The notes under the pieces are model-generated. The model saw only the letters and a program-made list of their open reading frames with translations, did not search any database and had not been told where the DNA came from. Of a stretch of DNA of 24,650 nt, positions 1 through 24,295 are shown one piece after another. A program made the position numbers and the translations under genes. Numbering within the stretch: the stretch's first letter is position 1; every line of letters starts with the position of its first letter. The DNA is from a virus, in the UHGV virus genome UHGV-0200293; one strand, given 5' to 3'.

Positions 1-271
1 CGGATTGTATGTATCTAATTTTTCTGGCTATGTTGTTGGGATATTGTTCAGTTACGTCCTTAACACATATTTTACTTTCTCGTCAAAGCCATCATTCAGA
101 AGGTTGGTTAAGTTCATTGTATGTTGTGCAGCCTGCTACGTCATCAATCTCATAGCCATGAAAACAACTATAGCATTTGGTTTTGAAAATAAATATTTAA
201 TCCAGCTGGCAGGGATGTTTTTCTATACAATCTCTGGTTTTTTAATTAATAAACTCTGGGTAATGAAATAA
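1..271 (+). CDS. gtrA: GtrA-family bactoprenol-linked glucose flippase, C-terminal 88-89 codons (5' end outside window)
   Basis: Small hydrophobic protein ending in stop that overlaps the gtrB ATG; gtrA-gtrB-gtrC order. Confidence 0.75.
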   Translation, partial: GLYVSNFSGYVVGILFSYVLNTYFTFSSKPSFRRLVKFIVCCAACYVINLIAMKTTIAFGFENKYLIQLAGMFFYTISGFLINKLWVMK

Positions 272-1227
272 TGAAAGCGCCTGTTCTTTCCATTGTTGTG
301 CCTTGCTATAATGAGCAAGATGTTTTTAGCCTTTGTCTTAATGAGTTATCATCTCGTATGAGTGAAATGAAAGACAAAGGGAAAATAGATAGAGAAAGTC
401 ATATAGTCTTTGTTGATGATGGAAGCAAAGATAATACCTGGCGATTAATAGAAGAAGCATCAAGTGACAGTTGTCTGGTGAAAGGGGTAAAACTTTCACG
501 AAATAAAGGCCATCAGACTGCATTGATGGCAGGGTTATCATCATGCACTACATCTGACATTACTGTAAGTATTGATGCTGACTTGCAAGATGACACCGCT
601 GTGATTGAAAAAATGGTTGACTCCTATCTCTCTGGTCACGACATAGTATACGGAGTAAGGAACGACAGAACCTCAGATAGTTTTTTTAAGAAGTTTACAG
701 CAGAAGCATTCTATAAGGTAATGACCAGGCTTGGTGTAAATCAGGTTGAAAATCATGCTGATTTTAGGCTGTTAAGTCGAAGGGCGCTCAACTCCCTTTT
801 ACAGTATAAAGAACAAAACCTATATATTCGGGGTCTTATCCCCCTGATCGGATATCCAAGTGATAAAGTGTACTATTCTCGTCATGAGCGAGCGGCAGGA
901 GAATCAAAGTACCCGCTCAGAAAAATGCTGGCTCTTGCCCTTGAAGGAATCACATCGTTCTCAGTAACTCCGTTGAGGATCGTAACCGCTTTAGGTTTTA
1001 TTATCTCTATACTTTCATCAATTGGAGTTATATATACTCTTGCCCAGTATTTTCTTGGACATACTGTTAGTGGATGGGCGTCGATGATTTTAGCTGTACT
1101 ATTTATAGGTGGAGTTCAAATGCTCTGCCTTGGTGTGATTGGCGAGTATATTGGTAAGATATATATTGAAAGTAAAAAAAGACCAAAGTTTTTTATTTCT
1201 GAGGTAACGGAAAATGACAAAGAATAA
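271..1227 (+). CDS. gtrB: GtrB bactoprenol glucosyltransferase (GT2 family)
   Basis: N-terminus MKAPVLSIVVPCYNEQDVF, DxD-type GT2 core, two C-terminal TM helices; 318 aa. Confidence 0.9.
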   Translation: MKAPVLSIVVPCYNEQDVFSLCLNELSSRMSEMKDKGKIDRESHIVFVDDGSKDNTWRLIEEASSDSCLVKGVKLSRNKGHQTALMAGLSSCTTSDITVSIDADLQDDTAVIEKMVDSYLSGHDIVYGVRNDRTSDSFFKKFTAEAFYKVMTRLGVNQVENHADFRLLSRRALNSLLQYKEQNLYIRGLIPLIGYPSDKVYYSRHERAAGESKYPLRKMLALALEGITSFSVTPLRIVTALGFIISILSSIGVIYTLAQYFLGHTVSGWASMILAVLFIGGVQMLCLGVIGEYIGKIYIESKKRPKFFISEVTENDKE

Positions 1228-2914
1228 TAAAGTATATTTTATATCCTTTGTGATTGTGTTAGTTTTAGCTCTGTTAAATGTGCATGTATTCATGGGTAAT
1301 GAACAGAGCGTGTACTTTTGGGACTCCAAAAATTTTTGGATGCAATGGATGAGATACGCCGATCTGTTGTTCCAGAGCCCGTTGGACTGGGGCATGTCTG
1401 TTTATACAACAGTAACAAAGGATGACTATAACGCTCTGTCTACAGCATTATTATTTCCATTTAAATTTCTGCCCATCGACTCAAGAAGTGCTTACATATA
1501 CGCTATAACCATTACATATTTAATCCCTGTAATTTTATTGGCAACATTTATTTTATTAAAAATATTTGAAAACAAGTCAGCATTCTATGTAATAACAACA
1601 GCTATTCTTGTTGTATTATATACTCCATTCTGGAAACCAACTCTTAGAGGTTTGCCTGATGTTGTCGGACTGATACCTATTCTCTGTGTGATTTATTTTA
1701 CGATAAAAAATAACTTATCAAACAGAGTATTGTTATTTAAATCAGTTTTTCTCGGCATTCTGTTATGGATGCCATTTGCATTTAGAAGATGGTATATATT
1801 TACGGTCATCACCTTATATATAACCTTGCCTTTTTTTGTGGCTTATTATCATGATGTTAAGTTTAAGTTCGAGTTAAACAAAGCAAAAAACATATTGATT
1901 AACTTTTTCATCTCAGGAATAATCACTGTTGCCCTTGCATTATTAATTCAGAAAGAGTTAATAGCCAGAATAATATCTACAGATTACTCAACCATGTATT
2001 CAGCTTACCAATATGGATTCTCAAAATCACTTATGGTGATTTTTGGAGATATTGGTTTGTTTATGATGCCATTTTTTATATTTGGCATAATTAGTGCCAT
2101 TTCAAACATTAAAACAAAGCAAAGCGTTTTTGTTCTTTTCTCTGCTTTCTCGTTTGTTATCAGTGTACTATTATTTACTGGTACTCAGACACCCGGCATT
2201 CATCATGTTCTACCATTCTCTCTGTGGTTCTTGTTTGTTTCTATTTTTGGGCTAAATTACATATCATCATTATTCAAGAGCAAGGATGCCGAACATTCTT
2301 TACTTACCATAATTATGGTAGGCATGACGCTTATATCTGTTAGCACTTTTAACAAACCATTCCCTTCTTATAAAAATGGCTTCCATATATTTCCTGATGG
2401 ATTATACCCATATAAAGTTTCCAATTTCGACGAGTACAAAAGGCTGAGTGATAGACTTGTAGCCCTTACGAATAGTGGCGATAAAATATCTGTATTTAGC
2501 TCTAACTACATCTTAAATGATGATATGTTACTTACAATATCTAATTTCAAGCTTACCCCTCGTGTATTCCGTGTATCTCAAGTAGATTTGCGCGATAAAC
2601 TCAGGATGGAAGCTTTCTCCACAAAATATGTTGTGGTTACTAACCCCATACAGTTGCATTTAAACAAGGACGGACAAAGGGTCATCTCTTACCCTGCGAC
2701 CTTATTGTTAAATAGAAAAGGTATAGGTTCGGCATATAAAAAACTTGATGAAAAATATCAACTAAGTAAAGGGGTTTCTGCATATATCTATGAAAAGCAG
2801 AGGCCATTTACTGAGTCTGAGTCCCAAGATTTTATAAAAAACATAGTTAATATGTACCCTCAATGGAATGAACTATACAATAATGCTAAGACATTAAAAT
2901 TATTATCTGAATAA
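1214..2914 (+). CDS. gtrC: GtrC-type serotype-specific O-antigen glucosyltransferase, polytopic membrane protein
   Basis: 566 aa, many TM segments, overlaps gtrB end by 14 nt; third gene of the gtr operon. Confidence 0.65.
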   Translation: MTKNNKVYFISFVIVLVLALLNVHVFMGNEQSVYFWDSKNFWMQWMRYADLLFQSPLDWGMSVYTTVTKDDYNALSTALLFPFKFLPIDSRSAYIYAITITYLIPVILLATFILLKIFENKSAFYVITTAILVVLYTPFWKPTLRGLPDVVGLIPILCVIYFTIKNNLSNRVLLFKSVFLGILLWMPFAFRRWYIFTVITLYITLPFFVAYYHDVKFKFELNKAKNILINFFISGIITVALALLIQKELIARIISTDYSTMYSAYQYGFSKSLMVIFGDIGLFMMPFFIFGIISAISNIKTKQSVFVLFSAFSFVISVLLFTGTQTPGIHHVLPFSLWFLFVSIFGLNYISSLFKSKDAEHSLLTIIMVGMTLISVSTFNKPFPSYKNGFHIFPDGLYPYKVSNFDEYKRLSDRLVALTNSGDKISVFSSNYILNDDMLLTISNFKLTPRVFRVSQVDLRDKLRMEAFSTKYVVVTNPIQLHLNKDGQRVISYPATLLLNRKGIGSAYKKLDEKYQLSKGVSAYIYEKQRPFTESESQDFIKNIVNMYPQWNELYNNAKTLKLLSE

Positions 2915-2942
2915 AAACAGGCCGCGAACGCGGCCTGTTTTT
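2913..2942. terminator. Bidirectional intrinsic terminator between gtrC and the convergent phage late operon
   Basis: AAAAA-CAGGCCGCG-AA-CGCGGCCTG-TTTTT: GC hairpin flanked by A-run and T-run, placed between two convergent stop codons. Confidence 0.7.
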
Positions 2943-3750
2943 ACACTATCGTCCCAGTACCATTTTTCCATACTGATCCGGTCCATGTTATAGCGTAACC
3001 TAAAGTTGTATCTAATATCTGCGCACCTGCGTCAACAAGACCAAGGGCGGGCCTTCCTGCGGTAGTAAAACTTGGCAGGCGCGGAGGCTTTACAAAGTTA
3101 ACAGAGTTAGCTGTTCCAAAACATGTAATACTAGCTGTAGTTAACTGTACTGTATATGTATTAGACCAAGCCCAGCGAGTTGTTCCATCATAATATCCAT
3201 TTGCAATTTTGTTATCAAATGTAGCTGGAGTAACTTCAACACCAGTAACAGCGATTGAATCAGCCACTTCGAACACCACGGTGTCAGCGTCGTAAACTTT
3301 CCACTCACCAGAGAAAGTGGAAATGTCGTTGGTCCCGAAGTCTCCAGACCATGACGTGGTATTCATGTAGCCCTGAATGTAGGTGCCAGCGTTCTCACCA
3401 GCGAAGTCGAAGCGTACCCAAAGGTTAGGCTGCCGACCTGCCTGCACTTCATCAAAGATGTACTTCGACAGACGCCACGCGCCGATCTCGTTATCTTTAT
3501 CCGACTTGCGAAACTCACCTTCACCGGAGATCGTCAGATCCATGTTGTTGACCAGGTTCTCCACCAGCCCTTTAGCATCATCTGCTTCGGAGTTGATGGT
3601 GTTCATCGAATAGTCGATGCCCTTGGTCGTCATAGCGCCGAGACGCTTCCACTCGGAAAGCGCTGGCACTGCGTCGGGGCAGCCAAAGGCCATGCGTAGC
3701 ACAGTTACTTTCCCGATCAGCTTGCCAAAATCATTAGCACAGCCTTGCAT
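2941..3750 (-). CDS. Phage major tail (tube)-like protein with C-terminal extension; last gene of the late operon
   Basis: 269 aa; N-terminal region (LGAMTTKGIDYSMNT...DLTISGEGEF) resembles TP901-1-type tail tube proteins from memory; RBS GAGAGG 5 nt before ATG. Confidence 0.4.
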   Translation of the reverse strand: MQGCANDFGKLIGKVTVLRMAFGCPDAVPALSEWKRLGAMTTKGIDYSMNTINSEADDAKGLVENLVNNMDLTISGEGEFRKSDKDNEIGAWRLSKYIFDEVQAGRQPNLWVRFDFAGENAGTYIQGYMNTTSWSGDFGTNDISTFSGEWKVYDADTVVFEVADSIAVTGVEVTPATFDNKIANGYYDGTTRWAWSNTYTVQLTTASITCFGTANSVNFVKPPRLPSFTTAGRPALGLVDAGAQILDTTLGYAITWTGSVWKNGTGTIV

Positions 3751-3765
3751 GTGTACCTCTCAAAT

Positions 3766-3789
3766 AAAAAAGGCCGCCGGATGGCAGCC
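3766..3789 (-). terminator. Intrinsic terminator (minus strand) upstream of the tail-tube-like gene
   Basis: Minus-strand RNA GGCUGCC-AUCC-GGCGGCC followed by UUUUUUAUUUG. Confidence 0.55.
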
Positions 3790-3809
3790 TGATGGGTTGG
3801 TGATGGGGG

Positions 3810-4016
3810 CTATTCGCCGTAAACGCACATGAACTGAAGTCGGAAGACCAATCGTCCCTCTTCAGTCAGGAGTGGTGCTGGCATATTCCCGAGGTTTTGA
3901 ATCAGGCCAAGGCACTCATCGGCAATGTCGTTCTGTTCGACATAATTGATGATTTCCTATGCCTTTTCTGCTGCTGGGCGACGATTACGTACTCGTTCGT
4001 ACATTGGAGGAGTCAT
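3810..4016 (-). pseudogene. Small late-region gene interrupted by in-frame amber codon
   Basis: ATG overlaps upstream stop (ATGA); 19 codons, TAG at 3957-3959, then 48 more in-frame codons to TAG at 3810-3812. Confidence 0.45.
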
Positions 4017-4381
4017 AACGACATTTCCTTGGCGATTGCAGCGTCTATCTGTCGCCGGGTTTCTTCGAAACCTTTAGTAAGAAATTCTTTCTTGGCCGTT
4101 GCCCGGCGGAAGTTCTGCGGTACATTCGGATCATGGACATAAACGGCGTAGTTAGCAGTGTATCCAACGCGCCCAGTAACACGATTTCCGTTCACCGTAA
4201 TCTCTCTGAATTGGCTGTTTATGAGGGTTGAAGTATCAATTGGTGTATACAGAGCCGCCTGCGTTCCGCCTATAATCAAAGCAGATTGCATAGCACGAAC
4301 GACTTTTCTCCCCTGTATATCACCAACAATAGTGTTCAGGTGCCTCTTCGCCTAGTTGACGCCCTTCACTTTGATGCCCAT
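4013..4381 (-). pseudogene. Late-region (head-tail joining or tail completion?) gene interrupted by in-frame amber codon
   Basis: RBS GGAG-AAAAA-ATG at 4379-4381; MGIKVKGVN, TAG at 4352-4354, then 112 in-frame codons; ORF track only reports the part from the internal ATG at 4291. Confidence 0.55.
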
Positions 4382-4397
4382 TTTTTCTCCAGGCAAT

Positions 4398-4419
4398 AAA
4401 AAAGGCCGCCTTAGCGACC
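4398..4419 (-). terminator. Intrinsic terminator (minus strand)
   Basis: Minus-strand RNA GGUCGC-UAAG-GCGGCC followed by UUUUUUAUUGCC. Confidence 0.55.
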
Positions 4420-4437
4420 TTATCTGAATGCGTTGTG

Positions 4438-4611
4438 CTACTTATACATGATGCTGATTTCTTTTGAATCCTCTGACTCTTTCCATTCCAACTGAATGAG
4501 AAGAGACGGATCATTACGAATTAGCTCTGCAATTTCATTAAGCTTATCCGCAACAACTCCCGCTGACTCTGGAGTGAAATTACCAGTGTTGTAACCGCTG
4601 ACTTCAGACAT
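4438..4611 (-). CDS. Hypothetical small protein (57 aa), candidate accessory insert
   Basis: Not in ORF track (under 60 aa); RBS GAGAGGA 5 nt before ATG; ends just before a terminator. Confidence 0.4.
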   Translation of the reverse strand: MSEVSGYNTGNFTPESAGVVADKLNEIAELIRNDPSLLIQLEWKESEDSKEISIMYK

Positions 4612-4657
4612 AAATTCCTCTCAACGCGTGGGTTTAGAAGACTCTATCATACTCCCG

Positions 4658-5841: not shown

Positions 5842-6852
5842 CTAGGTACGCCAGACATAATCGCTGTTATAGAAGAGGCGCGGGTCGGCTACTGTGCCGA
5901 ACGCCTGACCAATAATGGGGGCAATAACTCCAGCACCCAGCGGAACAATCAGGATCTGGTTGCCGGTCAACTGAGCATCTTCTTTTACTGCGGAAATACC
6001 AGATAACTTCAGAATCTCTTCCAGCACGGTGCGGGTTTTATTCTGAGTGTCGTAGTACTGCTCGAGGTTGGACATGATTTCTGCCGACACATGCCAGGTC
6101 TGCTGGCCATACTGATAGTTTTGAAGCTTCAGTACATCGCGCAGCGCAATCGCGGCAGCACGCATAGCGTCTGGATCAGTGCTGGTCGCGAAGTTTACTG
6201 TCAGTGTTACCTGAGCAACGCGCTCGTCCGCCTGCAGCCCTTTCCAGGTATAGTCATCAAATTTGATGAAATTGCCTTCGCTGTCGCGAAAACCATTCCA
6301 GATATAGTCCACATACTGACGGCGAACATCATCAACAGAGCCTGCCTGAGCGTCAGACAGTGATGCCAGAGCGGAACCTTTGTTGAATACCGGATCACGC
6401 CAGTTGAACTTAAAGCCGCTGTCATGGATCGACACCATCGTTCCGTCAAAGGTGTAGCTTTTCGCGTCCAGAGCGGCACCAATCTGACCTGACATAGAAG
6501 TGTGAGCCCAGCCTCGTCCGCCTTTGCGGGCATACTCGTACACTGATTCTTCCAGACGAACGGAACGGGACAGCGGCATCAGATCATTCAGTAGCGTAAA
6601 CTCTGTGGTCGGCTCAAACTCGGCCAGTACTGTCTGGTCATACGCTTTATACAGTCGGCGGATATCGTCTACTGCATTAACAACATCCAGTACAGGGGCG
6701 TTGGATGCCTCACCACGAAATTGCGCGCGGGAGATGAAATCTGCCACAGCCTGAGCGCTAGCATTGCGTGCGAATTGCAACTCCTGAAACTGAGCCTGGT
6801 TGGCCTCAAAGTTTCGGGTCTCCTTCGCCTTTTTCATAGAAAATGCAAACAT
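5842..6852 (-). CDS. Major capsid protein
   Basis: 336 aa; follows scaffold and decoration genes in canonical order. Confidence 0.6.
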   Translation of the reverse strand: MFAFSMKKAKETRNFEANQAQFQELQFARNASAQAVADFISRAQFRGEASNAPVLDVVNAVDDIRRLYKAYDQTVLAEFEPTTEFTLLNDLMPLSRSVRLEESVYEYARKGGRGWAHTSMSGQIGAALDAKSYTFDGTMVSIHDSGFKFNWRDPVFNKGSALASLSDAQAGSVDDVRRQYVDYIWNGFRDSEGNFIKFDDYTWKGLQADERVAQVTLTVNFATSTDPDAMRAAAIALRDVLKLQNYQYGQQTWHVSAEIMSNLEQYYDTQNKTRTVLEEILKLSGISAVKEDAQLTGNQILIVPLGAGVIAPIIGQAFGTVADPRLFYNSDYVWRT

Positions 6853-9469: not shown

Positions 9470-10468
9470 TTAAGTCCCTTGCCATGATATTCGTTCTTTC
9501 GCCAACTTTTCCTTCAGCCCTTCATTGAAGATGCTGCCGTCGTCATTGAGTAGCACCGGAATCTGGCTGCAGTAACAGTTGTACCGGTTGCCGTTCTCGG
9601 CGTAGAAGTTGCGCACCTCTTCGGTCGTGTAGACCTTTCCGTGTCGGCTGGCATGCCAGGTGCGCGTCGTTGGCTTGAGCGCTGACAGCCACAGAAGGCC
9701 GGTGTTCAGCCCAAGCCTGTCGGCCGCCCAGTCCGTTTCATTCCACTGCGCCTGCCGCAGCGCGCCGACCTGTTCAGTCTGAGCGATGGTCTTCGCCTTC
9801 GACATCGACACATCGAGGCGCTTGCTGATGACACTGGCAGTCTCACGCGGATTCACTCCCCGCGCCACTGCATCAGTGATTATGTTGGTCAGATCGCCGC
9901 GGGCTGTATCGCTGATGACCTTCCAGTCACTGAACGTTGTCAGCCTGGCCGCCGCTATCTGGTTTAGATATCCGGGGCTGTTTAAAAGCTGCTGTAACGT
10001 CGTCTGGCTGGCGTACACCTGCGACTGCTGCGAGAAGTTGTTGAAGGCCTCCAGCGTACCGCGCCGCGCCTCTGCGGCGACGTAATCCATCGCCCAGAGG
10101 TTTTGCTCGCCGCCATCCAGCAGGTAATCGTCGAGAATGGCCTGCACCGCTTCGAGGAGATCCGCCAGTTCCTGCGCCGACATGTCGTAGATGAACTTGC
10201 CTGCGTTGACCTGGTAGAGCCGCATATCCTCGCCGTTGTCGTGGCACAGGAAATGCCAGTTATGGCTATTAACTTCTCGCTCTATCCCTTTCAGGCGTAG
10301 GTCGAACAGCGCTTTCAGTGCGCGCTTGATGCCGAGATACCGGTCCTCGATATCCCGGTACATCGCTGTTACCTGCTTTGCCGATCGGGTCGGGTCAACC
10401 TTGCTGCGCGGAACTACCGGTGTCCCTACTTTCGTCTTTTGCTCCGGTGTCATCGGAAAGAGGATCAT
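9470..10468 (-). CDS. Phage head morphogenesis protein (Mu F / SPP1 gp7-like); start uncertain
   Basis: 332 aa directly downstream of portal; N-terminal 74 nt overlap portal, so a downstream start is possible. Confidence 0.55.
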   Translation of the reverse strand: MILFPMTPEQKTKVGTPVVPRSKVDPTRSAKQVTAMYRDIEDRYLGIKRALKALFDLRLKGIEREVNSHNWHFLCHDNGEDMRLYQVNAGKFIYDMSAQELADLLEAVQAILDDYLLDGGEQNLWAMDYVAAEARRGTLEAFNNFSQQSQVYASQTTLQQLLNSPGYLNQIAAARLTTFSDWKVISDTARGDLTNIITDAVARGVNPRETASVISKRLDVSMSKAKTIAQTEQVGALRQAQWNETDWAADRLGLNTGLLWLSALKPTTRTWHASRHGKVYTTEEVRNFYAENGNRYNCYCSQIPVLLNDDGSIFNEGLKEKLAKERISWQGT

Positions 10469-11870
10469 CGGTCGTTACCTTTTTATTTGGGTCAGGCGGC
10501 TTAACATCTTCACGCGGCTCAAGTTCTCCTGCTTCCCTGACCTCATTTTCGTCAACAGCCGGTGTGCCATAGGCCTGTTGAGTATCCTTCGCGACTGCCG
10601 CCATTTCCTTCATGGTGGCGATCTTTTCTTTCTCACTTGGCGCGAGTAGATCAGACCAGGTTAACGTGATTTCGCCAGACTTCGGAGGTTCGATAACTTC
10701 CACAGTCCACAGGCGTTCTATAACTGCACTTGCCCGGTCAGTCTGAAACCCGTTGCGGCGACCATTACAGCGCTTGGCAAAGTCATTTTTGTCCTGATCT
10801 GACGCAAGCCTTCCTGTCTGCTGACCAAACAAGATGGTGAAAGGCATCTGAACTGAAGATGAGAACTGGTTAGCTGATACTGTCCATGTTGGGCCAGGAT
10901 CGGCGGCGGCGACAGAGAGTACTTTCGCCTCCCCATCCTGGGTAACCAGAGCGGAATCTGTACCTGAGTTAAGCTTTTGAATAGCAGCATTCAGCGCCTC
11001 AGCTAAGCCTGAATATCCAGTTCTCTTCGCCTCGTCGACGATGGTCTTGAGATTTGTCTCCTTCGACATGTTAATGCCGAGCTGTCTACTGGCGTTCTTC
11101 AGAACCCCTTCCGCACTACCGCCGGACGTTTTCGCCATATCGAGCAGGTCGTTGTAACCAGCTCGCAGGAATGGAATGCCAGCCAGCGACGTTTCATCTT
11201 CTGATCCCTCACAGAACATGATGATGCGTTCTGGGTGAATCTTAATCGACCGCATTGGCCCAGTGATGTTTCCGTTATCGCCGACCTGTTGCTCCTGGAA
11301 ATAGTAAAACTTCGGCATGCCGTAGTCTGGCGACTTTTGGTCCTGCTCAAGCTCACCGGGTTTAACCTGCGCTTCCCATGCAGGAATCATCTTGACCAGG
11401 CCGCGCTCACGAGTGTTTCGCATTACACTGCGGTCGACGGGCTCCCACCATTCCTTGCTGTCTGCAAACTGAAGGGTAAGTGCTGAGTAATGCCCAACCA
11501 GATTTCGCCGATCCGCATCCTTCACTTTCGCCCAATGTTTCTTCATGAGCTTGGTGACTTTCTTTTCCCACGGCGTCGACTTCTTAGACTTCTTCGTCTC
11601 ATCGCCGTCGACGATCACCGGGGTATCGGTCCAGCATGCATCGAGCAATTTATGCACCGCGCCGAACGCCGAGCCGTTACGTTCATACATGTTGTAGAAG
11701 TGGTAAAAGTCGAGTCGCTCCGGGTAACCAAATTCGCACCAGAGATGATATCGTTTCGTGTTACCTGACTTCCCAAGCCCTGATGCATACAACTGGCGTG
11801 CGCGGCCAACCTCGTTAAGGCTGTTCACAATGAGCCCAGCGAGGACTTGCATTTCTGTAGTGTTACTCAC
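10395..11870 (-). CDS. Portal protein
   Basis: 491 aa, acidic C-terminal tail, immediately downstream of terminase large subunit. Confidence 0.6.
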   Translation of the reverse strand: MSNTTEMQVLAGLIVNSLNEVGRARQLYASGLGKSGNTKRYHLWCEFGYPERLDFYHFYNMYERNGSAFGAVHKLLDACWTDTPVIVDGDETKKSKKSTPWEKKVTKLMKKHWAKVKDADRRNLVGHYSALTLQFADSKEWWEPVDRSVMRNTRERGLVKMIPAWEAQVKPGELEQDQKSPDYGMPKFYYFQEQQVGDNGNITGPMRSIKIHPERIIMFCEGSEDETSLAGIPFLRAGYNDLLDMAKTSGGSAEGVLKNASRQLGINMSKETNLKTIVDEAKRTGYSGLAEALNAAIQKLNSGTDSALVTQDGEAKVLSVAAADPGPTWTVSANQFSSSVQMPFTILFGQQTGRLASDQDKNDFAKRCNGRRNGFQTDRASAVIERLWTVEVIEPPKSGEITLTWSDLLAPSEKEKIATMKEMAAVAKDTQQAYGTPAVDENEVREAGELEPREDVKPPDPNKKVTTDDPLSDDTGAKDESRDTGSSAQQG

Positions 11871-11880
11871 TGAGTTGTCC

Positions 11881-13356
11881 TTATGTGAAGAAGATTGCGC
11901 CGACCTGCTTGTGGTTGTTCTTCGCTACCGCAAAGTAGCGGAAGCCGTCAGCACCGTGTGATGTGAAGTCATGAAGCGGTTTATCTTTCCAGCATCCGCG
12001 CTTGTCGTCCCACTCCTTGCGGTAGCCTTCGAGGTGAGATATGCCCTCGGCACACTTCTCCTCATCGGATACACATGATGGGAGGATTTCACGCACCGAC
12101 TCAATGCCGGTATCAACTCCCACTTTCGGAACCACCTGAAACGTCATGCTGTAAACCTGCCCGTCGATTTCATACCCCTCGCGGGCAAGCTCTCTACGGG
12201 ATTTGGCGTCAGCACCGAATTCACGGTTATCGATGTCGTGCGGGCCCCAGTGCTCGTCGTACTCGTAGCCACGGTCTTTCAGCACCTTCATGTAGTGCCT
12301 CAGGCCCTCGCCAGAGTTTTCGTAGTAGTCGATGATGTGAAACTCTTCGCCAACCTCACGAACGAACCAGATAGCCGTAGAATCGCCCACGCCGATATCC
12401 CAGAACGTATGGACCGGAAGGTGCGAGTTGTCCGGGATTTGGCCGATTCGCTTGTTGGTGTAGAGCCAGCGGAATTGTTTGGCGTAGTACGCGCCCTCGA
12501 CAGACTGCTGGAAAGCCTCCGCCGGTATGTTCGGGTATTCGCGCTTCATGTCGTCGCCGAGAGTTTTCTCTTTGGCGTAGTACCATGCTTTCTGGCGCTC
12601 GTTGACGACTACACCATGCTTCGCCTCCATTTCAGCGAAGTACTCAACCAGGCGCACCGGCAGCGATTCAACCGGGTCGATTGCGTACTGCGGGTTCTTC
12701 CACCAGGAGAAGAAGAAAAACTTCCAGTCGAGCGCGGATAATGGCTTGCCTTGCAGCAACGCTTTCTCTGCCGTCTGGCAGTAATCGAAAAAGTACCCCG
12801 CCCGGCCCTCGGCTGTGCTCTCGATAGTAGCGAAGCATCCAGTCGATACCGCTTCAAACGCACCAGTGACGATTTCACGGGCTTTGTCAGGATACTTGGC
12901 GCATATCTTCCCGAACTCGGAAACGTGCAGGTAGCGCAGCGTACCGCCACGAAACGACGTGCTGACGTAGAGTGAGCCGCCCTTCTTAAAGACGAGCTCA
13001 CCGGAAGAGTCGTTGCTAGCCGGGTTGGCCGCCTTTATCTCTGCCGGCAACTTGTCATAGGCATACTTCACCTTTTCCCGAAAGAGGCGCTTTGCATCAT
13101 TCAGTGTGTGGGCGATCAGCGCGCACTTTGCAGACTCGAACAGCGCCGCGTCCAACTGGATGATGCACACCTCAGTTGTGAAACCGAGCTGGCGAGCTTT
13201 CAGGATGATATTACGTATATGGATCCCCTCAAAGTATTTCCGTTGCTCAGGCGTCATCCTGAACCGCGTCGGCTTTCCCTCTTTGTCGGTTATCCAGTAA
13301 AGATTGTTCAGCCGCCAGTCTTTGTCGGCCAGCAGCTTGAGGTGCTCAGGTTTCAT
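11881..13356 (-). CDS. Terminase large subunit
   Basis: 491 aa; start overlaps the small-subunit stop; followed by portal. Confidence 0.7.
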   Translation of the reverse strand: MKPEHLKLLADKDWRLNNLYWITDKEGKPTRFRMTPEQRKYFEGIHIRNIILKARQLGFTTEVCIIQLDAALFESAKCALIAHTLNDAKRLFREKVKYAYDKLPAEIKAANPASNDSSGELVFKKGGSLYVSTSFRGGTLRYLHVSEFGKICAKYPDKAREIVTGAFEAVSTGCFATIESTAEGRAGYFFDYCQTAEKALLQGKPLSALDWKFFFFSWWKNPQYAIDPVESLPVRLVEYFAEMEAKHGVVVNERQKAWYYAKEKTLGDDMKREYPNIPAEAFQQSVEGAYYAKQFRWLYTNKRIGQIPDNSHLPVHTFWDIGVGDSTAIWFVREVGEEFHIIDYYENSGEGLRHYMKVLKDRGYEYDEHWGPHDIDNREFGADAKSRRELAREGYEIDGQVYSMTFQVVPKVGVDTGIESVREILPSCVSDEEKCAEGISHLEGYRKEWDDKRGCWKDKPLHDFTSHGADGFRYFAVAKNNHKQVGAIFFT

Positions 13357-14811: not shown

Positions 14812-15273
14812 TTATTGACATTGATTTTTAATGTAATTCTGCAAACCAGCAATTAGGATTTTGTTGGTTGCGATTCGTTCTCTGAGATTGAAATAATCCC
14901 GTTGAGCGGCGTCAGTAAGTCTGGCGCTGGCTGCATCATCCACGCCGGGGGCGGAGGTGGCTTTACGCACGCTGTCACAGGCTGCGGCGACGCGCAGCCG
15001 TTTAGCGCCAGAATCGACATCCCTACGCAAATCGCTAATGGTGTTTTGCGCATCGAATAACTCCTGTGTGTACTTCGCATCCAGCGCGGCAACATCGCGC
15101 TGCCGGGTTGTCATGTCGGTGATGGTGGCATTAGCCAGATTCAGCGCCTGAGTCTTCTCATCGCGCTGCTTCTTGTATTCTGTGGCGTTGTCGCGGTAGT
15201 GATTAACAGCCCAGCCAAGAGATACGATGATGCAGATGACCACAGCGATGATGGTTGCGGTTAACCTGCTCAT
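14812..15273 (-). CDS. Rz-like i-spanin
   Basis: N-terminal TM helix, coiled-coil periplasmic part; start overlaps endolysin stop. Confidence 0.7.
14853..15053 (-). CDS. Rz1-like o-spanin lipoprotein embedded in Rz
   Basis: Internal start [20 protein letters not shown] (lipobox) and Pro-rich body in the +1 frame of Rz. Confidence 0.6.
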
Positions 15274-15758
15274 TTCTCACCCCACAGGCAAACTTCGCGC
15301 TCAATCTCGCGGCGGGTCATCAGCCCTTTCCACTGCTTTCCGCCAGCGTAAGTCCAGCACCTTAACTGCTCGCATGCACCTTTGATATCGCCCTGGTTGA
15401 TTTTGTACAGGAGCGTTGAGGTCTTGAAGTTTCCAGCGCCAACGTTGTACGCGAAAGAGTAAATCGCTGCTCGTTGAGTTTCAGTAGTCGGCACTTTGAT
15501 GTGCGGATCAACCTGTGCGGCAGTTCGCGTTAAATCTTTCCTGGTTAGTGCGTCGCATTCTTTATCGGAGTATCGCTTTCCGGGAATGATGTCTGAACCT
15601 GTGTGTCCATCGCATACTGTAATTACACCAACGACGTCACGGTATGCGACATACTCCCTTCCCTCAACGCCATCCTTACCTGACAGCATGACTGTTGCGA
15701 TCGCAATCGCACCGCCACCGATGGAGGCAGCAATTTTATTTCGCAGGGTGCTGTTCAT
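15270..15758 (-). CDS. SAR endolysin (T4-lysozyme-type, phage 21 R-like)
   Basis: N-terminal signal-arrest-release segment [17 protein letters not shown] and C-terminal [21 protein letters not shown], close to phage 21 R as I recall it. Confidence 0.8.
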
Positions 15759-16567: not shown

Positions 16568-16596
16568 AATATATGCGTTTCAGTTCGGTTTTGCAA
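16568..16596 (-). promoter_or_regulatory. Candidate sigma-70 late promoter (pR-prime analogue) at the 3' end of the Q-like gene
   Basis: Minus strand TTGCAA-17 nt-TATATT; position matches lambda pR-prime just after Q. Confidence 0.35.
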
Positions 16597-17263
16597 GACT
16601 TACATTCGAATTTGTCGCCTTTTGTTGTAAACGTGATCGCGTTACGGAGATAAGCGCATCATTATCGAGCCGCTTAAAGACATTACGCAGTGCCAACCAG
16701 TGAGGCAGGTACGTCTCTGTCCAGGTGGATTTAGCTACGCCCACCAGCTCAGCCAGCTTCTGGTACTCGTACGTCTCGCGGCCGCACAGCTCTGCTTTGA
16801 CGTCCTGCGCCGCCAACCAGATTAACGCCCGGAGTCGCTCCAGCGTTTTTCCGGCGATTTTCTTGCCAGCGAGTTGCGCCGTAAACTTATTCCATGCCCA
16901 GCGGGTTATGTCGACCTGATATTCAAACCGAGTATTTTCACTGTAGCTCCAGAGCAACTAGGCTTTTTGATGCTCGTCGAGCGACATTAGCGCCCGACGC
17001 CATGAAGCAGTGGAGTATTCAACCGGCTGCACCAGCGGGATATGCGATCCTTTGGCGTGTGATTGTTTTCCGGGGATCGGAGGGTTGTTCAGCGTTATCA
17101 GTTTTCCCGTAACTTCATCGCGTACACGCAACCTCTTGCGGGGGTAAGTATTCGTATCGAACTGCGCGTTCTCCAGCCAGGCCATTAACTGACCCTTTGT
17201 CGCTCCGCTCAGATCTGCCGTGGCCGCAATCAGTTGCTGGCGAATATAGGATAAATTTTTCAC
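16580..17263 (-). pseudogene. Late-gene regulator (Q-antiterminator-like by position) interrupted by an in-frame amber codon
   Basis: ORF-track ORFs 16958..17263 and 16580..16957 are contiguous and in frame, separated only by TAG (16958-16960); the distal 125 codons contain no ATG; GTG start with SD GGGGA. Confidence 0.5.
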
Positions 17264-19187: not shown

Positions 19188-19421
19188 TTAGTAAAACCAG
19201 TCGTCAGCGCTTTCCCAGGTATCCTGGAGAATCTCCTCAATGCACTGCTTATCCCCTTTTTCACCCCCCAGAATACTCAGGCCGTCAGCTCCGGCGCGAC
19301 GAACTGTCAGTTTCACATCTTCATAGCTCTGACTGAGTCTGCGTAACAGTTCAGCTTCTAATGCTAGCACTGCGCCATCAGGAAGTTTCTTAGTACGATC
19401 AATGGTTAATTCAATTTTCAT
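19188..19421 (-). CDS. DinI-family protein (prophage copy)
   Basis: MKIELTIDRTKKLPDGAVLALEAELLRR...DKQCIEEILQDTWESADDWF aligns along its length with E. coli DinI as I recall it. Confidence 0.75.
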   Translation of the reverse strand: MKIELTIDRTKKLPDGAVLALEAELLRRLSQSYEDVKLTVRRAGADGLSILGGEKGDKQCIEEILQDTWESADDWFY

Positions 19422-19441
19422 AATGGGCTCCACCACGAAAA

Positions 19442-19457
19442 CTGTATATTTATACAG
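19442..19457. promoter_or_regulatory. LexA (SOS) box upstream of the dinI homologue
   Basis: CTGTATATTTATACAG fits CTGT-N8-ACAG; lies 21-36 nt upstream of the dinI-like ATG. Confidence 0.6.
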
Positions 19458-19530
19458 CACACCTATAAATCAGAATGATCAACGATTTAAGAGCACGAAT
19501 AGTTAACCTGCAGACACAAATTCCAGGCGT

Positions 19531-19552
19531 AAAAAAACCCGCCGAAGCGGGG
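19531..19552 (-). terminator. Intrinsic terminator (minus strand)
   Basis: Minus-strand RNA CCCCGC-UUCG-GCGGG followed by UUUUUUU. Confidence 0.55.
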
Positions 19553-19559
19553 TTAATCA

Positions 19560-19772
19560 TTAAGAGCATCGCGCCCTGGCTTTAATTTCTTGTCTTCCCA
19601 TACCGTGGTACCTGCGCTGATGACCACACATCCAACAGGAGCACAGACATGGTGTATGGTAGACCTTACCAAATGCAACTGGCCCACCAGAACACGCATT
19701 GCGGTAATGTCTGCGTTTTGATTTAAGCCTTGCAGCATGATGTCGGCGCAGAGCGCGCTTTTGTGATTTCAT
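19560..19772 (-). CDS. Small basic Cys/His-rich protein (70 aa), possibly zinc-binding
   Basis: RBS GGAG 7 nt before ATG; HTPCLCSCWMCGH cluster; an overlapping alternative frame (19553..19738) lacks an RBS. Confidence 0.3.
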   Translation of the reverse strand: MKSQKRALRRHHAARLKSKRRHYRNACSGGPVAFGKVYHTPCLCSCWMCGHQRRYHGMGRQEIKARARCS

Positions 19773-19913
19773 AACAGAACTCCGTAAATTTTATCGGAGC
19801 GGCCACACCTTCGCATAGCCGCCTGAACGGGAGCTCTGAATAGATTATTTTTCTCATTCTATTAATATGACATTAAAATATTCTGGACTAAAAAATAGCC
19901 TCATCGGGTTAGT

Positions 19914-20114: not shown

Positions 20115-20139
20115 GAATCCTCCTGACACTCAATGATAC

Positions 20140-20165
20140 GTGCTCTCTGATGTTATGGAGAGCAC
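20140..20165. promoter_or_regulatory. Inverted repeat GTGCTCTC-N10-GAGAGCAC in the 5' leader of the 66-aa gene
   Basis: Perfect 8-bp arms read from sequence. Confidence 0.4.
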
Positions 20166-22048: not shown

Positions 22049-22264
22049 ATGTCACAGGTAATTTTTAACGAAGAGTGGGTTGTTGAGTCCAGACTTACCG
22101 AAAGAACAGGGCTTACTGAAGGACAGATTAAAAATTATCGCCTGAAGCTATGGGTTGAAGGTGTTCACTTCAAGCGCCTTACTGCGCTTGGACAGACTGA
22201 CAACTCTAAAGGTCTGCTTTGGTACAACTACCCGAAGATTAATCAGTTAGTTCAGGATGCTTAA
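22049..22264 (+). CDS. Excisionase-like protein
   Basis: 71 aa immediately upstream of and overlapping the integrase start; RBS GAGGTG. Confidence 0.5.
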   Translation: MSQVIFNEEWVVESRLTERTGLTEGQIKNYRLKLWVEGVHFKRLTALGQTDNSKGLLWYNYPKINQLVQDA

Positions 22265-23550
22265 TGAAATACCCGACTGGTGTTGAACTGCATAACGGAA
22301 AAATCAGGATCACATTTATCTATCGCGGCATTCGTTGCCGCGAAGTTCTCCAGGGTTGGGTTGTCAACAGTAGCAACATTAAAAAAGCGGGCAATCTGCG
22401 CGCAGCAATTGTGAGTGAGATACAACTCGGTAAGTTCGACTACGCAGATCGTTTCCCGGAATCAAAAGCTCTTAAGAAATTTTCGTCCACAAAACGGATC
22501 TCCACATTCAAAGAACTGAGTGATTTTTTTACAGATACAAAGTCACTGGAGGTATCTGAAGCCACTTTGCTATCCATCACATCAGTCGTTAACACCCTGA
22601 AACGAGTCGTGGGCGAGAACACACGGCTGGTTGATATTCAGCACGCAGATATTCTGAATTACCGCAAAGAACTCCTGACCGGGGAAGTTTTCAACCCTTC
22701 AATACCAAACCGCATCAAAAATGGGCGCGCGCCCTCAACAGTCAATAAACAGATGGCTGTTTTATCAGAAATGCTGAAGCTTGCAAACCGAAGCCAGTTT
22801 ATATTGCATGCTCCTTATGAAGGAGTGTCGCGACTCAAGTTATCTAAAAATGATCCCGACCCACTTTTACTTCATGAGTACCAGGCACTGATAGCCGCCC
22901 TTCCCCGTAGCCAGGCATTAATCATCATTATTGCGGTACATACAGGGATGAGGCCGGGCGAGATATGCGCACTGGCATGGGAAGATATTGATTTGGTAAA
23001 AGGTGAAATCCACGTATCCAGAAATTTGACGAACAAGCAAGTATTTGTACCCCCTAAAACAGATGCCGGGATAAGGACGATAACGTTGCTGAAACCTGCT
23101 CATGATGCTCTGCTGGAGCAATACGAAATCACTGGGAACAGTCCAAAACAGGAAATTCAGTTTCATCATCGTGAGATCGGAAAAACTGAGCAGCAATATC
23201 TTCGCTTCGTTTTTTCACCGACAACATACTCGTCAACGAAAGGCGGTTACTTTTCCAAGGACTCGATTTCGTATGGCTGGAAACGTGGGACTAAACTTTC
23301 AGGTATACGTGAGCGCAATCCATATCAGTCGCGTCACACATATGCCTGCTGGACGCTGATGGCCGGAGCGACCCCGTCGTTCATTGCCAGCCAGATGGGA
23401 CATGAAGATGCGCGGATGGTATACGAGGTTTACTCCAAGTGGATTGGTGATATGAACCAGGATCAGGTCAACATGCTGAACAATCAGATGCCGACAGCAC
23501 TGCCTCCAGGACGCCCCCAAGGGCGAGGGAGTATGAAAAAAGTCATTTAA
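22264..23550 (+). CDS. int: Tyrosine-type site-specific integrase
   Basis: 428 aa; C-terminal catalytic region with SRHTYA and GHEDARMVYEVY; at the prophage end next to the host gene. Confidence 0.85.
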   Translation: MKYPTGVELHNGKIRITFIYRGIRCREVLQGWVVNSSNIKKAGNLRAAIVSEIQLGKFDYADRFPESKALKKFSSTKRISTFKELSDFFTDTKSLEVSEATLLSITSVVNTLKRVVGENTRLVDIQHADILNYRKELLTGEVFNPSIPNRIKNGRAPSTVNKQMAVLSEMLKLANRSQFILHAPYEGVSRLKLSKNDPDPLLLHEYQALIAALPRSQALIIIIAVHTGMRPGEICALAWEDIDLVKGEIHVSRNLTNKQVFVPPKTDAGIRTITLLKPAHDALLEQYEITGNSPKQEIQFHHREIGKTEQQYLRFVFSPTTYSSTKGGYFSKDSISYGWKRGTKLSGIRERNPYQSRHTYACWTLMAGATPSFIASQMGHEDARMVYEVYSKWIGDMNQDQVNMLNNQMPTALPPGRPQGRGSMKKVI

Positions 23551-23620
23551 TTTCATAGCGCTGGTTTCAATCCACATAATCAGCGTTAAACTACTAATAC
23601 CGTTAATTTAGGGAGAAAAG

Positions 23621-24295
23621 ATGATGCGCGTACTGGTTGTCGAAGATAATGCCTTATTACGCCACCACCTGAAGGTTCAATTACAGGATTTGGGGCACCA
23701 GGTTGATGACGCAGAAGATGCAAAGGAAGCCGATTATTATCTTAACGAGCATCTGCCGGACATCGCCATCGTCGATTTAGGCCTCCCGGATGAAGACGGG
23801 CTTTCGCTGATCCGCCGCTGGCGCAGCAATGACGTTTCCCTTCCTGTTCTGGTATTAACCGCCCGTGAGGGCTGGCAGGATAAAGTGGAAGTGCTGAGCG
23901 CCGGCGCCGACGACTACGTGACAAAACCGTTTCATATTGAAGAAGTGGTCGCGCGTATGCAGGCGTTAATGCGCCGCAACAGCGGCCTGGCCTCGCAGGT
24001 TATCTCTATTCCGCCTTTTCAGGTGGATCTCTCCCGCCGTGAATTGTCCGTAAATGATGAAGTGATAAAATTGACGGCGTTTGAATACACCATTATGGAA
24101 ACGCTGATCCGCAATAATGGCAAAGTCGTCAGCAAAGATTCGTTGATGCTACAGCTCTACCCGGATGCGGAACTGCGTGAAAGCCATACCATTGATGTAT
24201 TAATGGGGCGCTTACGCAAAAAAATTCAGGCGCGATATCCTGATGATGTGATTACCACCGTCCGTGGTCAGGGATACCTGTTCGAACTGCGCTAA
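23621..24295 (+). CDS. phoP: Two-component response regulator PhoP
   Basis: Near-identical along its length to enterobacterial PhoP ([19 protein letters not shown]...TVRGQGY.FELR); real start may be the second Met at 23624. Confidence 0.95.

What the first reader, a model, noticed from the sequence alone, without database searches (positions are those of the whole stretch)
2913..3789. Late operon ends at a tail-tube-like gene and is joined to convergent gtrABC through one shared terminator
After the tail-tube-like gene there are no tail chaperones, tape measure, baseplate or fibre genes. Instead the gtr operon arrives from the opposite direction and both end at the same hairpin. In P22-like phages gtrABC sits next to int/att, whereas here int is 20 kb away at the other end. 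The element is therefore either a deletion derivative or a composite of two prophages, with the serotype-converting gtr cargo retained.
Basis: partly seen in the sequence, partly recalled or inferred. Interest (0 to 1): 0.4.

Follow-up and report, generated by a model that had tools for sequence, protein, structure and literature searches.

The report
Deletion-scarred prophage remnant keeping gtrABC
This is a decayed Citrobacter koseri prophage in which one roughly 11 kb deletion fused the tail-tube gene in frame to the last 92 codons of the tailspike gene, leaving the O-antigen-modifying gtrABC genes and their native two-way terminator intact, which is an ordinary kind of phage decay.

Summary
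gtrA-gtrB-gtrC (+ strand, ending at 2914) and the phage late operon (- strand, ending at 2941) converge on one perfect palindromic hairpin (2913-2942; -23/-25 kcal/mol, z = -7 on both strands). No tail genes follow.

The "tail-tube-like gene" (2941-3750) is a deletion scar:
- Codons 1-177 are the N-terminal part of a siphovirus major tail protein.
- Codons 178-269 are the last 92 codons of a 672-aa tailspike.
- They are joined in frame at 3220|3219.

Other C. koseri genomes carry the intact tailspike, the same hairpin and the same gtrABC. Intact relatives carry the whole tail module (about 11 kb) in between.

The left flank is attL and purB. The right flank is int, attR and phoPQ. This is therefore one prophage, not a composite. 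gtr at one end and int at the other is the normal integrated layout, because attP lies between gtrA and int.

Other damage: Q antiterminator split, two neck genes disrupted, immunity and replication region missing.

So this is a known kind of thing, a gtr cassette surviving in a degraded prophage.

Side finding: the attachment site lies inside the phoPQ promoter. The PhoP box is left at attL, pointing at gtrA.

The parts
1..271 (+). gtrA, the 3' 271 nt. The gene starts 115 nt before the window and encodes 128 aa.
   Evidence: PF04138 GtrA_DPMS_TM, E 4e-15. The full ORF was read in L001 8672-9058.
271..1227 (+). gtrB, a GT2 polyprenyl-phosphate glycosyltransferase.
   Evidence: PF00535, E 4e-24. 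NCBIfam hits are to PgfS and ArnC-like transferases, below their cut-offs.
1214..2914 (+). gtrC-position gene, 566 aa. A polytopic membrane protein with a GT-C fold.
   Evidence: No Pfam, NCBIfam or PHROG family matches. About 10 hydrophobic segments lie in residues 1-381. AF2 model: pLDDT 92, pTM 0.91. All Foldseek hits with E <= 1e-3 are GT-C lipid-linked-sugar transferases: STT3, DPY19, PglB, ArnT.
2913..2942 (.). Bidirectional intrinsic-terminator-like hairpin, A5-CAGGCCGCG-AA-CGCGGCCTG-T5. It overlaps both stop codons.
   Evidence: -23.1 and -25.2 kcal/mol, z = -7.0 on both strands. A variant with the same GGCCGCG/CGCGGCC stem sits between the intact tailspike gene and gtrC in L172-L177.
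2941..3219 (-). Last 92 codons plus stop of a tailspike gene. This is the 3' part of the 269-aa fusion ORF.
   Evidence: 98.6% nt identity over 279 nt to the end of the 672-aa tailspike in L010. L172 is colinear with window 6-3219 at 97.6%, and the match stops at 3219. An exhaustive HMMER search matched mostly the extreme C-termini of longer proteins; the sampled ones were tailspikes and tail fibres.
3220..3750 (-). First 177 codons of the major tail (tube) gene: the tube domain plus 14 residues of the Ig-like domain. This is the 5' part of the fusion ORF. The deletion junction is ACA|TTT at 3220|3219.
   Evidence: 98.9% aa identity over residues 1-177 to intact 251-aa major tail proteins in L013 and L053, with the match ending at 3220. 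85% identity to the Klebsiella phage 2 LV-2017 major tail subunit over residues 1-163. PHROG 853 covers profile positions 1-178 of 254.
3771..3790 (-). Conserved stem-loop with a U-run, immediately upstream of the major tail gene RBS.
   Evidence: It is present in L013, L016, L020, L046, L053 and KY271396, with compensatory or G-U changes in the stem.
3813..4070 (-). Tail-terminator pseudogene with an internal deletion and an in-frame stop.
   Evidence: Only residues 38-123 of the L053 123-aa protein align. The translation shows ...RRPAAEKA*EIINYVEQ....
4016..4381 (-). 122-aa neck gene with a stop at codon 10.
   Evidence: MGIKVKGVN* in the window against MGIKVRGVKQ in L053.
16580..17263 (-). 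Q antiterminator split into two ORFs, so a pseudogene.
   Evidence: PHROG 304 positions 5-103 fall on ORF 16958-17263 and positions 106-223 on ORF 16580-16957.
22049..23550 (+). xis (22049-22264) and the tyrosine integrase (22264-23550).
   Evidence: Pfam DUF1233, Arm-DNA-bind_2 and Phage_integrase on the identical genes in L002. NCBIfam hits to tyrosine recombinase models, all below their cut-offs.
23578..23592 (+). attR core AATCAGCGTTAAACT. The attL copy lies 433-447 nt before the window start (L001 8340-8354).
   Evidence: This is the longest exact repeat shared by the purB-gtrA spacer and the int-phoP spacer. The reconstructed attB is colinear with empty purB-phoP spacers of other species.
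23621..24295 (+). phoP, the host gene that marks the right boundary.
   Evidence: Pfam Response_reg and Trans_reg_C with PhoQ downstream. 97-98% aa identity to Citrobacter PhoP.

Best explanation
The window holds a defective lambdoid siphovirus prophage, about 24 kb long. It sits in Citrobacter koseri between purB (attL) and phoP (attR).

In the ancestral phage the late operon ran terminase, portal, capsid, neck, tail tube, chaperones, tape measure, distal tail, J-like protein and tailspike. It ended at a hairpin terminator shared with the convergent gtrABC cassette, which lies at the prophage end next to attL.

One illegitimate deletion of about 11 kb then joined codon 177 of the tail-tube gene in frame to codon 581 of the 672-aa tailspike gene. 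That removed the Ig-like domain of the tube protein, the chaperones, the tape measure, the distal-tail and J-like genes, and most of the tailspike.

The tailspike 3' end, the terminator and gtrABC were untouched, so the late operon now appears to end at a tail-tube gene.

Inferred, not shown: the gtr cassette still works. GtrB would load glucose on undecaprenyl phosphate, GtrA would flip it, and the GT-C-fold GtrC would transfer it to O-antigen. The hairpin would stop gtr transcripts, and any residual late transcripts, from running into each other. The fusion ORF is a scar and has no tail function.
For: **The chimera and its junction**
- Homology to major tail proteins stops at residue 163-177.
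- The remaining 92 codons are 98.6% identical at the nucleotide level to the end of a C. koseri tailspike gene.
- In an exhaustive search that C-terminal part mostly matches the C-termini of longer proteins; the sampled ones are tailspikes and tail fibres.
- A three-way alignment puts the switch at 3220|3219, in frame.

**Relatives**
- L172-L177 carry purB-gtrABC-hairpin-intact tailspike. They are colinear with the window only up to 3219.
- Intact C. koseri prophages at the same purB site (L180-L182) have tube, chaperone, 1013-aa tape measure, minor tail genes, a 905-aa J-like protein and tailspike, then a convergent gtrCBA. Tube codon 177 to the equivalent tailspike codon is about 11 kb. L010 shows the same tail module.

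**One element**

**Further decay**
- Neck genes are disrupted, Q is split, and no cI, cro, O or P lies between DinI and DUF4060, unlike Gifsy-2.

**Terminator and gtr identity**
- Hairpin energetics.
- gtr gene identities.

**Not an artefact**
- The same arrangement appears in independent assemblies, including a complete chromosome, CP052059.1.
Against: - No single sequenced ancestor was shown to carry both parent genes at near-identity. The major tail gene of the L010 contig was not retrieved. The closest tube-gene relatives are about 91% identical in DNA.
- No useful microhomology is visible at the junction, so the deletion mechanism is unknown. One step cannot be told apart from several.
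- The activity of the gtr genes and of the hairpin is inferred only.
- In one genome (L006, CP052059.1) the gtrC gene is called as two ORFs. Retention of a working cassette is therefore not universal.
Confidence: 0.9

Rival explanations
1. The element is a composite of two prophages. A gtr-carrying element and a separate head-module prophage would have been joined by recombination.
For: The structural module is mosaic relative to database phages, with 77-94% identity in patches. The GC content of gtr (about 30-40%) differs from the late genes (about 55-63%).
Against: - There is only one integrase and one att pair.
- Tailspike, hairpin, gtrCBA and attL are contiguous in intact relatives at the same site.
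- Low GC is typical of gtr cargo.
- The junction lies inside two late-operon genes of the same orientation, as expected for an internal deletion.
Confidence: 0.05
2. The 269-aa protein is a natural, functional major tail protein. Its usual Ig-like decoration domain would have been exchanged for a tailspike-type C-terminal domain.
For: Major tail proteins often carry swappable C-terminal domains. The fusion is in frame. The exact protein is indexed in many assemblies (69 blocks of the collection).
Against: - No chaperone, tape-measure or baseplate genes follow it.
- DNA identity to the tailspike-gtr block runs uninterrupted through the terminator and stops exactly at the junction.
- The neighbouring tail-terminator and neck genes and Q are pseudogenes.
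- Its wide occurrence could equally reflect clonal inheritance within C. koseri; this was not tested.
Confidence: 0.03
3. gtrABC is an internal insert in an intact phage, whose tail genes lie beyond the left edge of the window. Alternatively, the junction is an assembly artefact.
For: None once the flanks had been retrieved.
Against: The left flank is gtrA 5' end, attL, purB, hflD, mnmA in every contig read. The window is identical to L001. The same structure occurs in complete NCBI chromosomes.
Confidence: 0.01

Closest known systems
gtrABC serotype-conversion cassettes of temperate phages (P22, epsilon34, Shigella SfII/SfV/SfX)
   Same: The three-gene order gtrA-gtrB-gtrC with overlapping genes is the same. 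So is the position between the last tail gene (tailspike) and attP/int. So is the variable polytopic GtrC downstream of conserved GtrA and GtrB (PMC2629481).
   Different: - The carrier is a lambdoid siphovirus, not a P22-like podovirus.
- GtrC belongs to no described family. It has no Pfam, NCBIfam or PHROG match, and only 22 homologues were found.
- The host is Citrobacter koseri.
- The attachment site is the phoP promoter rather than a tRNA gene.
'Bacterial' gtr operons in degraded prophages of Salmonella (Villafane et al. 2008, PMC2629481; Davies et al. 2013, PMC3688519)
   Same: The gtr cassette is kept while the carrier prophage decays. [quoted passage not shown] Here several differently deleted forms at one locus (about 24, 11 and 8 kb) all carry gtrABC.
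   Different: Species and locus differ. Here the deletion endpoint is resolved to the base, as an in-frame tube::tailspike fusion.
Klebsiella phage 2 LV-2017 / 2b LV-2017 / ST13-OXA48phi12.5-type temperate siphoviruses
   Same: The head, neck and tail-tube module is shared: 79-87% nt identity, and 85% aa identity for the tube domain. Gene order from terminase to major tail is the same.
   Different: Those phages continue with about 12 kb of tail genes after the major tail gene. None of them matched the gtr region in the phage-collection searches.
Bidirectional Rho-independent terminators between convergent genes
   Same: It has a perfect GC-rich palindrome flanked by an A-run and a T-run, so either strand gives a hairpin plus U-tract.
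   Different: Nothing distinctive. Termination was not measured.

Membership tests
gtrABC O-antigen glucosylation cassette | GtrA: a small membrane protein of the GtrA/DPMS family. | tested here: met
   PF04138, E 4e-15. The full 128-aa ORF was read in L001.
gtrABC O-antigen glucosylation cassette | GtrB: a GT2 bactoprenol-phosphate glucosyltransferase immediately downstream of gtrA. | tested here: met
   PF00535, E 4e-24. Its start overlaps the gtrA stop at 271.
gtrABC O-antigen glucosylation cassette | GtrC: a variable polytopic membrane glycosyltransferase in the third position (9-11 TM helices per PMC2629481). | tested here: met
   It overlaps gtrB by 14 nt. It has about 10 hydrophobic segments. 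A confident AF2 model has a GT-C fold. There is no sequence-family membership.
gtrABC O-antigen glucosylation cassette | Prophage-borne, next to the attachment site, after the last tail gene. | tested here: met
   The attL core is 317 nt upstream of gtrA. The tailspike gene is convergent on gtrC.
gtrABC O-antigen glucosylation cassette | Adds glucose to the O-antigen (serotype change). | not testable with these tools
   This needs LPS chemistry or serology on a gtr mutant.
Dam/OxyR phase-variable gtr operons (Salmonella, PMC2909390) | Paired GATC sites within OxyR half-sites upstream of gtrA. | tested here: inconclusive
   Only two GATC sites, 96 nt apart, lie between attL and gtrA. OxyR sites were not modelled.
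Intrinsic (Rho-independent) bidirectional terminator | A GC-rich stem-loop followed by a U-run on both transcribed strands. | tested here: met
   9-bp GC-rich stem with A5 and T5 flanks, z = -7 on both strands. It is conserved in relatives. Termination itself was not measured.
Siphovirus major tail (tube) protein, PHROG 853 | A full-length protein: tube domain plus C-terminal Ig-like (Big_2) domain, followed by chaperone and tape-measure genes. | tested here: not met
   Only profile positions 1-178 of 254 are matched. The C-terminus derives from a tailspike. No tail genes follow.
Defective (cryptic) prophage | Bounded by att repeats with an integrase, but lacking modules essential for lytic growth. 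| tested here: met
   att pair and int are present. The tail module, the immunity and replication region and Q are missing or broken.
Composite of two prophages | A second integrase or att site, or a junction between elements of different origin. | tested here: not met
   There is a single int and att pair. The junction joins two genes of one late operon.

The most novel reading that the evidence does not exclude
**Shown.** This phage family uses the phoPQ promoter itself as its attachment site.
- The attL core lies 126 nt after the purB stop. Immediately upstream of it are a perfect PhoP box (GGTTTA-N5-TGTTTA), then 12 nt, then the -10 hexamer.
- Integration therefore leaves the PhoP box, and presumably both native promoters, about 24 kb away from phoPQ.
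- phoP keeps only phage DNA upstream. That DNA has no PhoP-box-like motif. It does have a possible substitute promoter, TTCATA-N17-CATAAT.
- The PhoP-activated promoter now points into the prophage. gtrA is 317 nt downstream with no terminator-like site between.

**Not tested.** If these promoters behave as their sequences suggest, lysogeny would remove PhoPQ autoregulation and would make O-antigen glucosylation respond to PhoP and Mg2+.

**Spread.** Integrase genes or fragments sit directly upstream of phoP in about 11 of 80 species representatives of Citrobacter, Enterobacter and Lelliottia.
Probability: 0.35. Interest if true: 0.6.

Novelty: new member of a known kind. Interest (0 to 1): 0.28.

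Why it matters
The finding itself is routine. It is a clean, base-resolved example of how a prophage decays while its lysogenic-conversion cargo survives.

It adds two small points:
- An uncharacterised GtrC family with a GT-C fold, relevant to C. koseri O-antigen typing.
- A warning that the 'major tail protein' at this locus is a fusion scar.

The more consequential point is a side observation. The attachment site lies inside the promoter of phoPQ, a master virulence and envelope regulator. Lysogeny may therefore rewire both phoPQ feedback and gtr expression in several enterobacterial genera. That is directly testable.

Tried and rejected
- **Word-indexed search with the 106-aa C-terminus.** It returned nothing. 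The exhaustive HMMER search was needed instead.
- **GtrC.** It had no relative in the phage collection by blastn or tblastn, in IMG/VR, or in the species-representative genomes. Its context had to come from exact-protein look-ups.
- **PhoP scan of genome contigs.** It did not return C. koseri itself; the best was 97-98% aa and about 90% nt for purB. No empty C. koseri site was seen, so the species name rests on source names.
- **L010 tail module.** It has no megablast match in the 80 tube-gene loci. A single contig carrying both parents was therefore not demonstrated.
- **tblastn of the C-terminal 106 aa against phages.** It gave only non-significant tail-fibre hits, E 0.1-0.5.
- **E. coli complete genomes.** They hold only a distant IntR-type integrase (68% nt) and nothing covering the int-attR-phoP junction.
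- **Literature.** Searches for a prophage in the phoP promoter or at purB-phoP found nothing relevant.
- **P22-like affiliation.** Rejected. The head and tail genes are of the siphovirus lambdoid type.
- **Microhomology-mediated deletion.** Considered. A GCAT shared by both parents would give an out-of-frame product that does not match the window.
Full report
**1. Layout of the window**

The + strand at the left end carries three genes:
- the 3' part of gtrA (to 271; PF04138)
- gtrB (271-1227; PF00535)
- a 566-aa gene in the gtrC position (1214-2914)

From 2941 rightwards the - strand carries a phage late operon:
- a 269-aa ORF (2941-3750) and neck genes
- major capsid (5842-6852), head decoration and scaffold-like genes
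- a Mu-F-like gene, portal (10395-11870), large terminase (11881-13356) and small terminase
- lysis genes (14812-15758), Q, NinG and NinB

The right end holds xis (22049-22264), an integrase (22264-23550) and then the host gene phoP (23621-24295).

**2. The observation**

The stop codons of gtrC (2912-2914) and of the 269-aa ORF (2941-2943) are 26 nt apart. The gap is occupied by the perfect palindrome AAAAA-CAGGCCGCG-AA-CGCGGCCTG-TTTTT (2913-2942).

As RNA it folds at -23.1 kcal/mol on the + strand and -25.2 on the - strand. Shuffled sequences average about -6 to -8, giving z = -7.0 on both strands, and 0 of 200 shuffles fold as well. The pattern scan did not list it; I think its stem extension absorbed the A and T runs, but I did not check this.

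The ORF matches major tail protein families (PHROG 853, E 5e-81; Pfam PF06199, weak). No tail chaperone, tape-measure, baseplate or fibre gene is in the window.

**3. What lies beyond the left edge**

Exact-protein look-ups for GtrC and for the 269-aa ORF returned long contigs. One of them (L001) is identical to the window over 12.9 kb.

In all of them the order on the left is icd, rluE, nudJ, mnmA, hflD, purB, then about 450 bp, then gtrA. On the right it is int, phoP, phoQ.

Protein names given by the sources place these genomes in Citrobacter koseri.

A 15-bp direct repeat, AATCAGCGTTAAACT, occurs twice:
- 126 nt after the purB stop (L001 8340-8354, which is 433-447 nt before the window)
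- at window 23578-23592, between int and phoP

I joined the sequence left of the first copy to the sequence right of the second. The result is colinear with the uninterrupted purB-phoP spacer of other Citrobacter species, E. coli and Salmonella.

The element is therefore one prophage of about 24 kb, with gtrABC at the attL end and int at the attR end. There is also no second integrase or att site.

**4. The 269-aa ORF is a chimera**

*N-terminal part.*
- BLASTP against the major tail subunit of Klebsiella phage 2 LV-2017 gives 85% identity over residues 1-163, then stops.
- tblastn against all phages shows the same cut-off.
- 272 IMG/VR contigs encode the first 163 residues, at 96-99% identity for the 80 listed.
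- PHROG 853 is matched only over profile positions 1-178 of 254.

*C-terminal part.*
- An exhaustive HMMER search with the last 106 residues found 52 proteins. Most matches fall at the extreme C-terminus of the hit, and many hits are 450-1,600 aa long.
- Of ten top hits checked, most carry tailspike or tail-fibre PHROG families or right-handed beta-helix / Tail_spike_N Pfam domains.
- IMG/VR contig UViG_2811995130_000001 ends with a 672-aa tailspike. Its last 279 nt are 98.6% identical to window 3219-2941.

*The junction.* I aligned the window with an intact major tail gene (L013) and with that tailspike gene.
- The window follows the tail gene to ...CCA GCT ACA (Pro-Ala-Thr, codon 177, ending at 3220).
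- It follows the tailspike gene from TTT GAT AAC (Phe-Asp-Asn, starting at 3219).
- The fusion is in frame, and there is no useful microhomology.

**5. Complete and differently deleted relatives**

*Relatives with an intact tailspike.* The 672-aa tailspike (P0053, C. koseri) was looked up in its genomic contexts. In five of the six places shown the locus reads purB, gtrA, gtrB, gtrC (566 aa), hairpin, intact tailspike, about 1.2 kb, xis, truncated int, phoP, phoQ. This is an approximately 8 kb remnant.
- That DNA is 97.6% identical to window 6-3219, and the match ends exactly at 3219.
- A variant of the hairpin with the same GGCCGCG/CGCGGCC stem sits between the tailspike stop and the gtrC stop.
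- The shared terminator is therefore the native end of both operons. The deletion did not create it.

*Intact prophages.* A 60%-identical tailspike (P0057) led to apparently intact prophages at the same purB site (L180-L182). Their order is tail terminator, 386-aa tube protein with a Big_2 domain, chaperone-like genes, 1013-aa tape measure, three minor tail genes, a 905-aa GpJ-like protein, a 173-aa gene, tailspike, then a convergent gtrC (a different family), gtrB, gtrA, umuDC-like cargo and purB.
- In L182 the distance from tube codon 177 to the equivalent tailspike codon is about 11 kb. That is my estimate of the deletion.
- L010 shows the same tail module.

*Further deletions.* Other C. 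koseri contigs carry the fusion ORF but have lost more of the head or early regions (L002/L007, about 11 kb; L003/L008).

**6. Further decay in the window**

Compared with intact relatives:
- the 122-aa neck gene (4381-4016) has a stop at codon 10
- the tail-terminator gene (about 4070-3813) has an internal deletion and a stop
- the gene ending near 4650 is frameshifted at its 3' end

Q is split into two ORFs that match the two halves of PHROG 304.

Between DinI (19188-19460) and DUF4060 (21745-21984) lie only about 2.3 kb. In Gifsy-2, which matches this region, the corresponding interval holds cI, cro, cII, the replication genes, recE and recT.

The element cannot be a viable phage.

**7. The gtr genes**

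GtrA and GtrB are ordinary family members.

The third gene matches no Pfam, NCBIfam or PHROG family and has only 22 detectable homologues. One of these is named 'Glycosyltransferase RgtA/B/C/D-like' by UniRef.
- It has about ten hydrophobic segments in residues 1-381 and a soluble C-terminal domain.
- An AlphaFold2 model built from the 22-sequence alignment is confident (pLDDT 92, pTM 0.91).
- Every Foldseek match with E <= 1e-3 is a GT-C lipid-linked-sugar glycosyltransferase: STT3, DPY19, PglB, ArnT.

This fits the role of a GtrC. Its sugar and acceptor specificity are unknown. Only two GATC sites lie upstream of gtrA, so Dam/OxyR phase variation of the Salmonella type is not evident.

**8. 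Interpretation**

'Deletion derivative' is right and can now be stated precisely.

'Composite of two prophages' is not supported.

The argument that gtrABC should be next to int rests on the phage map. In epsilon34 the genes run tailspike (19), gtrC (20), gtrB (21), gtrA (22), int (23), with attP just downstream of int (PMC2629481; the placement of attP between gtrA and int also rests on the known leftward transcription of int). Integration at attP therefore always separates gtr and int to opposite prophage ends.

That paper also states that most 'bacterial' gtrABC clusters lie in prophages ranging from largely intact to highly degraded. Davies et al. [quoted passage not shown] The present case is a new member of that known kind, in C. 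koseri.

**9. Side observation: the attachment site**

At attL the sequence left of the core is CCGGTTTACGAAATGTTTATCCCCGCCGCAACAC. It contains a perfect PhoP box, (T/G)GTTTA-N5-(T/G)GTTTA, then 12 nt, then a -10-like CA(C/T)AAT. This aligns base for base with the phoP promoters of E. coli, Salmonella and other Citrobacter species.

Background from the literature:
- PhoP autoregulates phoPQ from a promoter immediately upstream of phoP. Deleting the PhoP box in that promoter stops growth of Salmonella in low Mg2+ (PMC2650801).
- E. coli has a PhoP-activated promoter and a constitutive one (PMC3750022).

What the sequence shows here:
- The prophage lies between that promoter and phoP.
- The 800 nt upstream of phoP contain no PhoP-box-like motif in the forward orientation.
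- The phage arm supplies TTCATA-N17-CATAAT, a possible substitute promoter. This is read from the sequence and is an inference.
- The PhoP-box promoter at attL now faces gtrA, 317 nt away, with no terminator-like site between.

Integrase genes or fragments lie directly upstream of phoP in about 11 of 80 species-representative genomes. These include C. braakii, C. portucalensis, C. meridianamericanus, several Enterobacter species and Lelliottia wanjuensis. None was found in 5,426 complete E. coli genomes.

The base just left of the core (T or C, within the -10 hexamer) is swapped between attL and attR in the two C. koseri lineages. That suggests it lies in the strand-exchange region.

I found no paper describing this site. 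The regulatory consequences are untested.

**10. Verdict**

The feature is a known kind of prophage decay with retained conversion genes, so its interest is low to moderate. The attachment site in the phoPQ promoter deserves a separate look.

Noticed in passing
window 23578-23592 (attR) and L001 8290-8354 (attL, 433-497 nt before the window): The prophage is inserted inside the phoPQ promoter. A perfect PhoP box (GGTTTACGAAATGTTTA) and the -10 hexamer stay at attL and point toward gtrA, 317 nt away. phoP keeps only phage DNA upstream, with no PhoP box and a possible TTCATA-N17-CATAAT promoter.
   Followed up: partly
L092, L094, L096, L103, L112, L113, L115, L117, L119, L133, L146 (about 1640-3000 in each): About 11 of 80 species-representative genomes (Citrobacter, Enterobacter, Lelliottia) have a homologous integrase or integrase fragment directly upstream of phoP, so this is a recurrent integration site. 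None was found in 5,426 complete E. coli genomes.
   Followed up: partly
window 23577; L001 8339; L172 (reverse strand) 6612 and 14159: The base just left of the att core (T or C, inside the -10 hexamer) is swapped between attL and attR in the window-type and L172-type C. koseri elements. This suggests it lies in the strand-exchange region, or that the two elements integrated independently.
   Followed up: no
window 3771-3790 (- strand): A terminator-like stem-loop with a U-run sits directly upstream of the major tail gene RBS. It is conserved in intact relatives, with compensatory or G-U changes in the stem (L046, L053, KY271396). Its role is unknown; attenuation or mRNA stabilisation are possibilities.
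   Followed up: partly
window 4382-4649 (- strand): An extra segment of about 270 bp lies between two neck genes that abut in relatives L013 and L053. It holds a 57-aa ORF (4438-4611) and a terminator-like hairpin (4402-4421), so it looks like a small moron.
   Followed up: no
window 16580-17263 (- strand): The Q antiterminator gene is split into two ORFs that match the two halves of PHROG 304, so late-operon activation is probably lost.
   Followed up: partly
window 19460-21745: The immunity and replication region (cI, cro, cII, O, P, recET) is missing compared with Gifsy-2. In its place are a TolA-C-terminal-like lipoprotein gene (20406-20810) and a 210-aa ORF with no family match.
   Followed up: partly
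window 1214-2914: The GtrC-position protein belongs to no Pfam, NCBIfam or PHROG family and has only 22 detectable homologues. Some of these come from Rosenbergiella, Martelella, Commensalibacter and Mesorhizobium. It nevertheless gives a very confident GT-C-fold model.
   Followed up: yes
L006 10837-12358 (CP052059.1): In this complete C. koseri chromosome the gtrC gene is called as two ORFs (339 and 153 aa). The cassette is apparently inactivated in that strain.
   Followed up: no
L180-L182 12070-16932; L175 15403-22019: Intact relatives at the purB site carry a different GtrC (PTPS_related, 532 aa) and umuDC-like cargo between gtrA and attL. In L175 the gtr side is flanked by unrelated genes instead of purB, which suggests a chromosomal rearrangement at the prophage.
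   Followed up: no
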